Shown here: positions 13,066-59,921 of the stretch, piece after piece
Layout of the letters: each line of letters starts with the position of its first letter
How positions within the stretch are numbered: position 1 is the stretch's first letter
NCBI GenBank assembly: GCA_964016885.1
Contig: OZ024750.1
Span: forward strand, 23,684,001-23,748,000
Direction of reading: 5' to 3'
From: Eledone cirrhosa
Taxonomy: Eukaryota
DNA: 64,000 bases
Program-made: the position numbers and the translations under genes
The notes under the pieces: generated by a model
Databases searched by the model: none
The model's input: only the letters and a program-made list of their open reading frames with translations
Told to the model about the DNA's origin: nothing

Positions 13066-13432
13066 TAGTATGCTCCCACCCACTCCCACTGTAAAGGGGT
13101 CGTGTAGGTGTATCACAGTAAAAAAAATACGCAGCACTCACTGTAAATGAGGTTGGAGTTAGGAAGGACATCCAGCTGTAGAAATCAAGCCAAAATCAGT
13201 TCTGTATGAGCAAGACATGGTCACCTGACCTGGCTTTGCCCCCACAACAGGACAATCCGTCTAACCCATGCTAGCGTGAAAGAATGGACGTAAAACGGTG
13301 ATGATGATGACATACATATATATATGTATATTATTTATCCCATATCTTACGTTAAAAATTTTTCATCTCCATGTTATAGTCACTTATATGTCTGAATTAT
13401 TGTCAGCTTTTTGCTTACATTAATTTCTCTAC

Positions 13433-13620
13433 GGTGGATTGGCAGAATCGGTAGAGGGCCGGACGCCATGCTTTCCAGCATAGTTACGTCCCTTTACGAT
13501 CTGAGTTCAAATCCCGCCGAGGTTGACTTTGCCTTTCATCCTTACGGGGGTCGATAAAATAAAGTACCAGTAATGCACTGGGTAATTGCTGGCCTTGTGC
13601 CTAACGTAGAAACAATTAAT
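13433..13620 (+). mobile_element. tRNA-derived SINE family 1 (other copies at about 300-482 -, 5625-5775 -, 9980-10175 -, 28727-28842 -, 30630-30808 +, 36092-36185 +)
   Basis: A box tggcagaatcggtag; B box gagttcaaatcc; conserved central domain gactttgcctttcatcc..ggtcgataaaataaagtaccag. Confidence 0.85.
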
Positions 13621-13714: not shown

Positions 13715-13906
13715 GTATATATATACTGTGATGTTGTCATATTCATGTTACTTATTATATTCTATATATTTATTTTTATATATTTGAAAAAAGGAAAAAA
13801 AATGACTTCACTTGTAGTTCTAAAATTTTACAACTTTGCTATGTAGATCTATATATATATATATATATAATATAAGATCAAAAGATGGTTAAAGGAGTTC
13901 CATGTA

Positions 13907-13973
13907 TTTTATTATGCGCATTTCAAAAACAAACATCATCATGCAATAATATTTGTGTTTTCATCAGATAAAA
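13907..13973 (-). ncRNA. Mirror-image copy of the same hammerhead on the minus strand
   Basis: Exact reverse complement of 14101-14167 within the palindrome centred on 14037. Confidence 0.85.
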
Positions 13974-14100
13974 CAGGAGGACATGATATGAAGGCTAAAA
14001 AACACTTGTGGATAGTGCAGTTTTAAATCAACATATCATATGTTGATTTAAAACTGCACTATCCACAAGTGTTTTTTAGCCTTCATATCATGTCCTCCTG

Positions 14101-14167
14101 TTTTATCTGATGAAAACACAAATATTATTGCATGATGATGTTTGTTTTTGAAATGCGCATAATAAAA
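14101..14167 (+). ncRNA. Type I hammerhead ribozyme with short palindromic stem III
   Basis: Stem I ttttat/ataaaa; core CTGATGA (14107-14113); 16-position stem II (14114-14149) with one mismatch and three G-U pairs; GAAA (14150-14153); stem III ATGCGCAT palindrome; AUA cleavage triplet ending 14161. Confidence 0.85.
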
Positions 14168-14295
14168 TACATGGAACTCCTTTAACCATCTTTTGATCTT
14201 ATATTATGTATACTCCAGTCCTACAAACTGTAGAGTGCTTCTTATCCGATATCTGCATTGCTTTATTGTACTACAATAAAACTCACCTCCTACAT

Positions 14296-14379
<84 letters not shown>

Positions 14380-16830: not shown

Positions 16831-17037
16831 CCCTTTAGAATTTACATTACTCTATATTTACTATTATATTTTCACAGTAAAGGCTTTACCTCACATAATA
16901 TTGAATCTATGAGATTTTGACATTATTTATTTTGAGAACAATACCTTAACATCAGTATGAGTGGCCAGTTACAGCCAGTTTGAACAGAAAGAGGTGAGAG
17001 AGTTCTGGCCGAATATGGCCAGTTTAAAGCTAAAGGA
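16831..17037 (-). mobile_element. piggyBac-type MITE, family A, nested in family B
   Basis: TTAA flanks; surrounding 16670-17101 matches family B. Confidence 0.85.
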
Positions 17038-20000
17038 TTAAAACCAGCAGCTTTATATCATAGAACCAGGGCTGGTTTCAGGTGCGCTACTATCAAAAGG
17101 GTGTTTCTAAAGACTATACTGCTAAAGCAAGGTTTGTTTGATATTTATTAATCCATATAAAATTCTTAAAATGCCTAATTAGAATGCCTGCACTACATAT
17201 GATAAATATTAAATGAAAAGTAAAGAATATAATTTCATTTAAGAGATAAAAGTAGAAACTAATATGTGATTTGCTAGTCATCCACACACAGAGCCCCAGA
17301 GGTTCTTATTTGATCTATTTCATAGCTATACATACATGCGTGTTGTAGTGCAGTCACTTCCAAACAAAATCATACCAAAACCTTTGGGTTATGACCAAAA
17401 AGAATGAAATAAATAAGCAAAAAACACAAAACAAATAAGTTCATTTCAAAAACAGCGGATTTTCAGGATGTCTGGAACCTACTTCGATGATTCAATACCT
17501 GTATTTACATCATCAAGGTATACATGCTTGTTTGAAATGAAAAATAAAATCTATAGCTCACACCTATGCAGGTTTATCTGGCCTCCTACGAGGTTGCATC
17601 TGAAGCCCTATTATGGAAAGTAACATGAAATGAAACAACTTGCTCAAGAACACAATGTGTTGCCTGGTCCAGGAATTAAACCTATGACCTTATGATCATG
17701 AATCCAACACCTTAACCACTAAACCTCACGCCTCAAGTTTGTAGAGTGAAAGGAAAATAAATTTAGATGTATGGTTATGGTAAAGGATGTGCCATGAGTC
17801 CCAACTGGAAGAGGAAGGCTGAGGAACATGAGTAAATTGGAGTGGTGAAAACTGATCTCAGGATGCTGATCCTCAAAAAAGAGGTTAAAAAAACACAAGT
17901 GTTGAGACTTTCAAATCTCTATAAGGTCAACTTTGCTTTTCATTCCTTTGGGATTGATAAAATAAAGTACAAGTCCAATGGTGGTGTATTGGTGGAATTG
18001 TTAAAGTTCCAGTCCATGGCAGTATATTGGTGGAATTGTTAAAGTGTCAGACAAGATACTTTGAAGTATTTGTTCTGGTTCATTTGGTCTAAGTTGAAAT
18101 CCAGCTGTGATCTACTTAATCTGTAACATTGTTTAACACCACTACCTGACCCTTGAATATCTTTAGCAGAGTCCAATCTGTTGTAAGCATTCAGACCAGG
18201 TCTCTGATTTGAAGATATTTTCCTCCTTCCCTCCTACCAGTGACATGGCATAGAAAAGGATCATGAGTATTGCCTTTCCCTCTCTGACTAAAAAGTAAAA
18301 CTATATATAAAAGATTACAGTTGCTATGCATATTCAGTGTAGAATAGGTATACCATATCCTTGTATGTGATAAGACATAACTATCAGGGTTGATGCTAGG
18401 AAGAACATCTGGCTACAAAAGGAACCCATAATTAGTATGATACCTTTTGTAGGACCCACAAGGTTAACTCCTGCTTCAGCAGGAGAAAATGGCCTTAAAA
18501 CACTATTACATTACAGTTGCTCAACCTACTAAAAAAGCAAAAATAATTTCCCTCAAACCACACATTGAATGTACAAATGTGATTGATATCAGCACATATA
18601 TATAGTATTTATTACATCTTAGTAATAGAAACCTTGACTTAAATATCTAAAATAGTCTATGTCTATCATTGCCAGATCTAATTATTGCTGTTAGACTTCA
18701 ACACTAAAAGGACAACAATAAAATAAGCCAAACAAATCTTCCAAGATTTATTGCTATTTTATAAACTGAATAATACCCTATCTTTAAATCAGGTGGATAA
18801 TAGTAATCCTACAGCCTCTATATATAAGAACATAGGCTCCCTTTAGTCATGACTGACCATGTATTTACACCAGGGAAAGTTCCTCTCCAAGGCACAAGTC
18901 TGAGCAAGGTATTTTGTAGAAGACCAGTATTTAGTTGCCCATGTATGCTAGTCTCCTCTCTCCATGCCCATGCTTGCCACTGATGTTGTCCAAGAGAAAG
19001 ACAAAGGCTGATACAGTTTGACACCAGTGATCTGACAACTGTGAAACAGAATGCCTTGCTTAATGATACAATGTGCTGCTCGGTCTAGAAGATTTGAACA
19101 CACAACCTTACTATCATAAGTTAAACACCATAACCACTAAAATATGTGCCTATATTCATATGAAATTAACACTTATAATAAACAGGATGCTATATTTTCA
19201 TATTTGAAAAGGATTTTTCAGGATAAAATGTAAGTGGAAATCCAATACTGAAGGTTATATCTGAATATATATCTTGGATAACAAAGATTTTCTTCCTTAT
19301 AGTTCATATGTTGCCATGTTACCAACTCACCAGACCATATATGAGAAAAGTATTTACATTTCTAAAACAGGTTTTATCATGGAGGCAAATTAGCAGAGTT
19401 GTTATAGAGGCCAGAGTTGTTATATGCATCGGGATTAGTTTTGGTTTTCTGAGCTCTAAGTTCAATCTAGGGTTGGTGGATTGCCAGAATTGTTAAAGAG
19501 TCAGACAGGATGCTATGCAGTATCTGATCTGACTCTGTGCATCTTGAATTCGAATCCTGCCTCCTTCTATCAGGAATTGCAACCAATTGATAGTAACAAC
19601 AGCAGAAATACCAATGGAAACATTGTTTCCTTGGTCTGCTCTGACAATCCATTGCTTTTCTTTCCTTTTTTTCTACCTGGAATCACAGATACTGCTACAA
19701 GTGTCAAATTACACTACATTCCATGGCTGTACACAACTATTTTTATAAATTTGGGCTACTTGCTTCATTAAAATGATAATTCTTAATGATAACAAGTCTA
19801 TTAAATATCATCATCATCCTTTTATGCCCATTTTCCAGGTTGGCATAAGTTGGACGAATTCTCATGGTCCAAGTCTAGATAGTTTGGGGGAGCCAAGTCT
19901 CACATATGCTTCTGTGGTTTCTATGGCTGGGTGTCCTTCCCAAAGCCAATCACTTTACAGAGTGTACTGAGTGCATTTTATCATGATACGAGCACTAACA

Positions 20001-32254: not shown

Positions 32255-32290
<36 letters not shown>

Positions 32291-32294
<4 letters not shown>

Positions 32295-32387
32295 ATAATA
32301 ATTATAAAGTCTTGAGCTGACCAATCGCGAAACGCGCGTCACACCTCAATAAATGTATTGAAGATCTAACACCTCGTCGTTTTTATC

Positions 32388-32424
<37 letters not shown>

Positions 32425-32637
32425 ATAATAATTATAAAGTCTTGAGCTGACCAATCGCGAAACGCGCGTCACACCTCAATAAATGTATTGAAGATCTAAC
32501 ACCTCGTCGTTTTTATCATTATATATATATATATATATATAGTAATAATAATTATAAAGTCTTGAGCTGACCAATCGCGAAACGCGCGTCACACCTCAAT
32601 AAATGTATTGAAGATCTAACACCTCGTCGTTTTTATC

Positions 32638-32688
<51 letters not shown>

Positions 32689-32784
32689 ATAATAATTATA
32701 AAGTCTTGAGCTGACCAATCGCGAAACGCGCGTCACACCTCAATAAATGTATTGAAGATCTAACACCTCATCGTTTTTATCATT
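32291..32784 (+). repeat. Four 100-bp tandem units separated by (TA)n spacers, each with a hammerhead-like motif
   Basis: Units start at 32291, 32421, 32541 and 32685; identical except one substitution in unit 4; spacers of 30, 20 and 44 nt; motif CTTGA-GC-N9-GC-GAAAC-GCGC-GTC followed by AATAAA. Confidence 0.85.
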
Positions 32785-32894
32785 ATATATATATATAATT
32801 ATAGCTCTGATTCATCTGAATTATTGAGCCCTCTGCCGCTCATATCGAATCTCGTTTATCGTGAACTCGTGCGCCGATTTTTCGATACTCGGTC

Positions 32895-59499: not shown

Positions 59500-59690
59500 T
59501 AGGAAAAAGTTTAACCCCGACGGCAGGGCTCAAGCCGTTTCTGGACTCTGGAGTCCAGAAATAGCTGTCGAAATGGCTTGTACTCTGTCGTCGGGGTTAA
59601 ACTTTTTCTTATTACCCACTCTATCCTAAGTATTGAGTACTCTGGTGCGTTATGGTTCATCTGGTTCCTTACCACACCTCCTTTGATGTT

Positions 59691-59724
<34 letters not shown>

Positions 59725-59919
59725 AACGAGTAGGACCCCGACGGTTGAGCTCAAGCCGTTTCGACGTTTCAACGGCTAATTCAGTCCAGAATTAGCCGTC
59801 GAAATTGCTTGAGCTCAGCTGTCGGGGTCCTACTCGTTCCTATTACCCACTCTACTACCCTAAGTATTGAGTACTTTGGTGCGTTATGGTCCACCTGGTT
59901 CCTTACCACATTTCCTTCG

Positions 59920-59921
<2 letters not shown>
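59500..59921 (+). mobile_element. Two tandem related hairpin+tail elements in (TA)n, each with a hammerhead 3' half
   Basis: Hairpins at 59500-59611 and 59721-59842; shared tail taagtattgagtact..ggtgcgttatgg..ggttccttaccaca, also present alone at 3063-3123. Confidence 0.7.

What the first reader, a model, noticed from the sequence alone, without database searches (positions are those of the whole stretch)
13867..14296. Perfect 341-bp palindrome carrying an intact hammerhead ribozyme on each strand
Seen: two identical 170-bp arms around one C (14037). Each arm holds a full type I hammerhead (stem I ttttat/ataaaa, CUGAUGA, long stem II, GAAA, palindromic AUGCGCAU stem III, AUA site). A ~90-bp tail with AATAAA follows, and (TA)n lies on both sides. 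Known: Penelope-like elements carry hammerheads with reduced, palindromic stem III that cleave as dimers, and often have inverted terminal segments. Inference: this is a very young insertion. A transcript from either strand would contain the ribozyme and its perfect antisense, so self-cleavage would compete with forming a 170-bp dsRNA (a Dicer or ADAR substrate).
Basis: partly seen in the sequence, partly recalled or inferred. Interest (0 to 1): 0.9.

Follow-up and report, generated by a model that had tools for sequence, protein, structure and literature searches.

The report
Mirror-image retrotransposon stubs carrying hammerheads
This perfect DNA mirror repeat is one of about 1,800 similar leftovers of an abundant Penelope-like jumping gene, and their junctions suggest each was likely made by two reverse-transcribed copies running to the presumably capped start of the RNA and being joined head to head.

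Summary
The palindrome is real: 170-bp identical arms around C14037, a type I hammerhead motif in each, an 89-bp tail, (TA)n flanks. It is not unique. The hammerhead core has 17,660 exact copies in this 3-Gb genome, and 1,775 loci join head to head at this same site. The parent is a Hydra-clade Penelope-like element (800-aa RT + GIY-YIG ORF); the window holds only its pseudo-LTR, twice.

Family ends fall at two sites (+170, +259). 24 of 27 inverted pairs use one of each, and in 15 of 24 neither arm can be a fold-back copy of the other. Arms stop sharply at A14038, often with an extra G (single-base centres: C/G 272, A/T 5), which looks like a reverse-transcribed cap. Likely mechanism: two cDNAs primed internally on capped, uncleaved sense RNA ran off its 5' end and were joined.

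The proposed cleavage-versus-dsRNA contest is unlikely: an RNA starting at the centre holds one arm only, and read-through makes the antisense arm first. No RNA data could be tested. A known kind of object, but a useful mechanistic read-out.

The parts
13848..13866 (.). (TA)n target microsatellite, left flank
   Evidence: sequence; nearly all of the 91 of 100 sampled family ends at the two main sites run into (TA)n
13867..14036 (-). Arm A: pseudo-LTR +1 to +170, ending at the inner (tail-less) end site
   Evidence: 97-99% identical to the pLTR of full element L031
13905..13975 (-). Type I hammerhead motif, minus-strand copy (predicted site after 13913)
   Evidence: mirror of 14099-14169
14037..14037 (.). 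Centre base; reads G in front of +1 on arm A (likely cap-derived), C in front of arm B
   Evidence: single-base centre is C/G at 272 loci and A/T at 5; with longer fillers G-side 523 vs C-side 121
14038..14296 (+). Arm B: pseudo-LTR +1 to +259 including the tail; +1 = inferred RNA 5' end
   Evidence: 98.5% identical over 264 bp to the 5' pLTR of L031, which runs on into the ORF
14099..14169 (+). Type I hammerhead motif with long stem II and palindromic ATGCGCAT stem III; predicted site after 14161
   Evidence: 97.6% of cells paired in 20 variants but no covariation above shuffles; no Rfam hit
14208..14296 (+). 89-bp 'tail' between the two end sites; AATAAA (14275-14280) lies in a predicted hairpin 14262-14280
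14297..14378 (.). (TA)n target microsatellite, right flank

Best explanation
The feature is a protein-less, head-to-head double copy of the pseudo-LTR of an abundant Penelope-like retrotransposon with Hydra-clade motifs, likely made when two cDNAs, primed at two internal sites of a presumably capped sense RNA, ran off its 5' end and were joined. Shown: parent element, copy numbers, two fixed 3' end sites, a sharp 5' end at A14038 with excess G, and arms that are not copies of each other in most asymmetric insertions. Inferred: the RT/GIY-YIG protein nicks both strands of a (TA)n tract; each nick primes reverse transcription inside the pLTR, one at +170 and one at +259; both cDNAs pass the uncleaved hammerhead, stop at the cap, often add C opposite it, and are joined through the self-complementary ATAT end or short fillers. 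The template could be the 5' end of the full mRNA or a short pLTR transcript. The hammerhead is a passenger here and would cut, if at all, as a dimer or with protein help.
For: Parent: tandem pLTR-ORF-pLTR copies and an unbroken 800-aa ORF; predicted fold hits RTs with telomerase RT at ranks 2, 3, 5; motifs match Hydra rows of Craig 2021 Fig. S7. Two end sites: 47 and 44 of 100 arms; 24 of 27 head-to-head pairs are one of each. Two cDNAs: the tail-less arm reaches further 5' than the tailed arm in 16 of 24 pairs by script, 15 after dropping one filler case. Same source RNA: arms differ by mean 1.7 within and 8.3 between elements (35 palindromes). Sharp +1: 22 of 100 arms end at positions 0/+1 against 24 spread over +6 to +104; only 5,345 of 12,419 copies continue into the parent's upstream YTC. 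Extra G: 2,329 copies, none of 30 inspected with parental upstream sequence; 272 vs 5; 523 vs 121, and 86 of the first 100 listed of those 121 have G on the partner arm by hand count. In vitro precedent: both strands cut and extended, two internal RT starts define the tail, uncleaved RNA is the main substrate (PMC11167929).
Against: No RNA evidence at all (one search was no test). The extra G could be terminal-transferase C addition at an uncapped end. The window's own centre base is ambiguous, since the parent has C at -1. None of 5 ORF-reading 5' pLTRs held starts at +1 (3 extend upstream, 2 are truncated inside), and 45 of 100 arms reach upstream of -5, so longer or circular templates also exist. 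At other truncation points about 7 of 24 first non-matching bases were also G (hand count). RWK is RWT/RWI here. No clade tree was built.
Confidence: 0.7

Rival explanations
1. Same two-cDNA origin, but +1 is an uncapped processed end or a joining hot spot made by the CATATG palindrome, and the G is untemplated addition by RT or repair.
For: The commonest junction is a plain ATAT overlap (about 21 of 50 listed); many RTs add C at template ends (recalled); reiterated ends such as ATATC-AAC-ATAT look like repair-type templated insertions.
Against: Arms ending at +1 also join to many other positions of the partner arm, where no CATATG overlap exists (table 5); A/T single-base centres are 5 against 272; TTCATA at -3..+3 fits the initiator consensus BBCABW (recalled).
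Confidence: 0.13
2. Self-priming fold-back, on an antisense RNA (proposed in PMC3846280) or on a single cDNA, makes the second arm as a copy of the first.
For: Arms share subfamily variants; 6 equal and 3 tailed-arm-longer pairs of 24 are compatible; the window's symmetric copy cannot itself exclude it.
Against: In 15 of 24 pairs each arm holds sequence that the other lacks; the extra G is on the tail-less arm in 8 of 16 single-base junctions, on the tailed arm in 5, unclassified in 3, and on both arms in CATG fillers; zero- and one-base loops cannot fold.
Confidence: 0.1
3. The palindromes spread as ready-made units (MITE-like copying of one founder).
For: The window's exact junction recurs at 272 loci; one locus has nearly identical arms (L092).
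Against: Junction fillers are diverse; the same junction sits on different subfamily backgrounds, 0-11 differences from the window, and with G on either arm type.
Confidence: 0.03
4. This locus is a selected regulatory switch in which ribozyme cleavage competes with dsRNA formation.
For: A read-through RNA would form a 169-bp helix, a plausible ADAR or Dicer substrate (general knowledge).
Against: One of 1,775 similar loci; identical arms are common (10 of 35); I recognised no host exon in a list of 64 open frames (inspected by eye only); antisense arm precedes the ribozyme on both strands.
Confidence: 0.02
5. Assembly or read fold-back artefact.
For: No long read or single contig spanning this locus was seen.
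Against: 1,775 loci share one centre with varied fillers; 25 of 35 have arm differences; unitigs of a public run show many joints leaving +1 (15 of 57 shown, all from 14030-14036 or to 14038), though that run may be the source sample; a fold-back would duplicate the flank, and the flanks differ.
Confidence: 0.02

Closest known systems
Hydra-clade Penelope-like elements (Craig et al. 2021, PMC8557442), including Hydra-1_Obim
   Same: C-terminal GIY-YIG, DKT, CxCX5C linker, CxxC and CxH, no CCHH, (TA)n target, hammerhead in the pLTR, inverted 5' copy and one-sided tail.
   Different: A distinct family: its hammerhead does not match any listed in File S2; unit about 3.7-3.9 kb against under 3 kb typical; tail 89 bp against 30-40; RWT/RWI for RWK; about 17,000-20,000 hammerhead copies.
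Poseidon PAc of Anolis (Frangieh et al. 2024, PMC11167929)
   Same: Two internal RT start sites bounding the tail, AT-rich target, uncleaved hammerhead RNA as template.
   Different: Different clade; the pLTR here lies wholly upstream of the ATG (+339); sections read do not describe cap-ended head-to-head products.
Inverted pLTRs with junction palindromes in Adineta Penelope (PMC3846280) and opposite-strand hammerhead pairs 100-700 bp apart in Schistosoma (PMC4209133)
   Same: Head-to-head pLTRs, tail on one side, paired hammerheads on opposite strands.
   Different: Those papers leave the origin open or favour self-priming on an antisense template; here thousands of junctions allow a count that favours two sense-templated cDNAs.
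Non-LTR retrozymes (PMC7229834, listing only; bioRxiv 10.64898/2026.07.22.740005)
   Same: Non-coding, pLTR-related, type I hammerhead.
   Different: Retrozymes are head-to-tail tandem arrays; this is a head-to-head pair.
L1 twin priming and 5' untemplated G (G: PMC9341517 passages; twin priming recalled)
   Same: Inverted insertion from two priming events; extra G attributed to the cap.
   Different: L1 primes at poly(A) plus a variable internal site and the two pieces do not overlap; here both sites are fixed and both cDNAs copy the same stretch.

Membership tests
Penelope-like element (EN+) | Single ORF with telomerase-like RT and GIY-YIG endonuclease in the parent | tested here: met
   800-aa ORF; fold hits TERT and other RTs; IYEC...YFG endonuclease motif aligns with Fig. 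S7 rows. Pfam and PDB sequence searches gave nothing.
Penelope-like element (EN+) | Pseudo-LTRs in tandem and inverted arrangement with optional tail | tested here: met
Hydra clade | DKT, CxCX5C linker, CxxC and CxH, CCHH absent | tested here: met
   SDKT, CNCRIKNKC, CNLC, CLH; criteria; CCHH absence judged by eye
Hydra clade | RWK motif | tested here: inconclusive
   RWT/RWI in this family; RWK in most relatives aligned
Hydra clade | (TA)n insertion and hammerhead in pLTR | tested here: met
Hydra clade | Phylogenetic placement with reference PLE RTs | not tested
   reference sequences were seen only as printed alignment text; no tree built
Type I hammerhead ribozyme | Core CUGANGA, GAAA, NUH with stems I-III | tested here: met
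   stem III only 2-3 bp as monomer, 8 bp (-10.5 kcal/mol) as dimer
Type I hammerhead ribozyme | Rfam model match or significant covariation | tested here: not met
   no Rfam hit; 221 of 500 shuffles as well paired, 1 of 25 pairs with a two-sided change (A-U/G-U/G-C at 10.1-11.1)
Type I hammerhead ribozyme | Self-cleavage | not testable with these tools
   needs in vitro assay
Non-LTR retrozyme | Head-to-tail tandem units each with a hammerhead | tested here: not met
   head-to-head pair; criterion

The most novel reading that the evidence does not exclude
Penelope-like elements transpose by two-ended target-primed reverse transcription on capped, uncleaved sense RNA, and priming inside the 5' pseudo-LTR mass-produces perfect hammerhead palindromes whose centre marks the transcription start; this genome records it about 1,800 times, which would settle the sense-versus-antisense template question and leave a genome-wide set of potential 170-bp dsRNA hairpins.
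Probability: 0.55. Interest if true: 0.62.

Novelty: new member of a known kind. Interest (0 to 1): 0.42.

Why it matters
As a single locus it is ordinary transposon debris. As a family it gives countable evidence on how Penelope-like elements make their inverted repeats and tail, which PMC3846280 and PMC8557442 call unresolved, and it predicts the start site and both priming sites to the base for a young family with an unbroken ORF. About 1,800 near-perfect long hairpins could also feed editing or small-RNA pathways wherever host transcription crosses them (untested).

Tried and rejected
DNA similarity search of the own genome returned nothing, not even the locus itself, because common words are skipped; pattern searches replaced it. 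Rfam: only microRNA and snoRNA matches below gathering scores. Pfam and PDB sequence searches on the parent protein: no informative hit; 18 relatives were unnamed. No RNA holder listed; four RNA runs of another organism gave 1, 1, 1 and 0 reads on the parent, so no test of expression, start site or cleavage. Covariation did not exceed shuffles. A script scan for other hammerhead families returned none because its pattern was too strict. Upstream end points at -38, -109, -228 and -253 are subfamily indel artefacts and were used only as 'reaches upstream'. 8 of 43 held central palindromes were dropped from the arm comparison because one arm lacked the core. Earlier scan notes: none found. Paper searches for a cap or untemplated-G signature in PLEs found nothing relevant; the library lacks most subscription papers, and bioRxiv supplements were not seen. 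A subfamily point change as source of the G was rejected (0 of 30 G and 0 of 30 A/T arms carry parental upstream sequence). AATAAA as a certain poly(A) signal was not accepted: full elements read through it into the ORF.

Full report
Observation. The arms 13867-14036 and 14038-14207 are exact reverse complements around C14037. Each holds a type I hammerhead motif: 8-bp stem I, CUGAUGA, a 12+3-bp stem II, GAAA, palindromic AUGCGCAU and an AUA site after 14161. An 89-bp tail and (TA)n flanks are as described. Rfam did not recognise the hammerhead in two scans. Across 20 natural variants 97.6% of cells pair, far above slid controls (36-62%) but not above shuffles (221 of 500). Two copies co-fold with stems I and II and an intermolecular stem III, as described for metazoan PLE hammerheads, which cleave poorly in vitro (PMC4209133; parts 1-2 of 4 read).

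It is a large family. A 26-base piece of the hammerhead occurs exactly 17,660 times in the 3.0-Gb genome and a looser core 20,075 times against 6 for the control; the looser pattern includes at least one other family. Head-to-head junctions at the same site number 1,775, and the window's junction type 272. Unitigs of a public run show the same kind of joint; that run may be the source sample, and no piece spanned this locus.

Parent. Stretches fetched around paired hits hold pLTR-ORF-pLTR units. Counting A14038 as +1, the hammerhead site is +124, the two end sites are +170 and +259, and in L031 the ATG is at about +339, the stop near +2740, followed by a 1.2-kb pyrimidine-rich 3' region. L036 has an unbroken 800-aa ORF. 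Its model (mean pLDDT 64.5, pTM 0.43) hits reverse transcriptases, with telomerase RT among the top five. Motifs fit the Hydra clade (PMC8557442: section 11, passages, supplement parts 2 and 58 of 59), apart from RWT/RWI for RWK and a longer unit. It is not the listed Hydra-1_Obim, whose hammerhead differs.

Two end sites, two cDNAs. Among the first 100 of the 17,660 hits (one 30-Mb stretch of one chromosome, all 100 held), 47 arms end near +170, 44 near +259, 4 read into the ORF and 5 end elsewhere. Of 27 head-to-head pairs within 5.2 kb, 24 have one end of each kind. In 16 of these 24 the tail-less arm reaches further 5' than the tailed arm; one is a filler effect, leaving 15 (long arms were placed roughly). 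There each arm holds sequence that the other lacks, so neither can be a fold-back copy. Arms of one element are far more alike (mean 1.7 differences in 160 bp) than arms of different elements (8.3; 35 palindromes), so both came from one source. This matches the in vitro Poseidon result that both target strands are cut and extended, that two internal starts bound the tail, and that uncleaved RNA is the main template (PMC11167929; parts 1-2 of 4 read). It argues against self-priming on an antisense template, the reading offered in PMC3846280 (passages).

The centre marks an RNA 5' end. 22 of 100 arms stop at positions 0/+1, against 24 spread over +6 to +104. Of 12,419 exact copies of the first 19 bases, 5,345 continue into the parent's upstream YTC, 2,329 have G in front, 2,417 A or T and, by subtraction, 2,328 another C context, largely ATAT overlaps. 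None of 60 inspected G or A/T arms has parental upstream sequence, and 29 of 30 G arms abut an inverted arm. Single-base centres are C/G 272 times and A/T 5 times. That alone cannot separate an added G from the parent's C at -1. Longer fillers can: G abuts +1 523 times and C 121 times, and 86 of the first 100 listed C cases have G on the partner arm (hand count). An untemplated 5' G is attributed to reverse transcription of the cap in L1 (PMC9341517, passages), and Penelope's start site and promoter lie in the pLTR (as cited in PMC8557442). Against: some G junctions also fit microhomology with the other arm; about 7 of 24 other truncation points also show G; RT may add C without a cap; 0 of 5 ORF-reading 5' pLTRs start at +1; 45 of 100 arms reach upstream, so longer templates exist.

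If transcription starts at +1, each arm would be read outward and the two RNAs would be identical, not complementary; whether the stubs keep a promoter is unknown. Only read-through from the flanks would form the hairpin (-290.7 kcal/mol), and on either strand the antisense arm comes first, so the ribozyme would be unlikely to fold. No host exon was recognised in the window (by eye) and the RNA runs offered did not hold the element. On age, 10 of 35 palindromes also have identical arms. Zero differences in 170 bp bounds arm divergence at about 1.8%, roughly under 2.5 million years if the octopus rate quoted in PMC13282606 (passages) applies and arms are not homogenised.

Comparison and verdict. 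Inverted pLTRs, tails, junction palindromes and opposite-strand hammerhead pairs are all in print. It is not a tandem retrozyme (bioRxiv 10.64898/2026.07.22.740005, part 1 of 5). I found no report of a cap-like G at PLE junctions in searches, within an open-access library. The object is a new member of a known kind (identity about 0.97); the two-cDNA, cap run-off mechanism is inferred from junction counts (0.7) and is directly testable. Interest 0.42.

Noticed in passing
window 32270-32800: Four tandem ~100-bp units separated by (TA)n, each with the 3' half of a second hammerhead family (GAAA-CGCGCG-TC, then AATAAA); a full version lies at G000:C1:1903721 (L177/L219).
   Followed up: partly
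window 7207-7170 (-): A third, minimal hammerhead-like motif (CTGATGA-13 nt-GAAA-CGT-TA); the predicted fold did not give the ribozyme shape.
   Followed up: partly
G000:C1:53125153 (L083), C1:56027191 (L084) and many rows: Junctions with the RNA's first bases repeated two or three times (ATATC-AAC-ATATC...), suggesting re-annealing and re-copying at the template end by the telomerase-like RT or by repair.
   Followed up: no
window 14262-14280: The AATAAA sits in a near-perfect hairpin just before the outer end site; it may be masked so that the 5' pLTR is read through, or may yield a short pLTR RNA.
   Followed up: partly
window 13431-13600: SINE-like repeat resembling the octopus OK SINE (name recalled); the same repeat follows some family ends (L033, L144).
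   Followed up: no
window 59500-59920: Two short (TA)n-flanked elements with internal inverted repeats, a different repeat also seen beside family copies (L032, L033, L212).
   Followed up: no
L036 ORF residues ~575-655: An Asn/Ser/Pro-rich insert of about 70 residues between RT and the Cys linker, absent from 8 relatives, like the N-rich inserts reported for Adineta Penelope.
   Followed up: no
L043 and L050: Other GIY-YIG/RT fragments of different PLE types lie beside or inside family copies.
   Followed up: no
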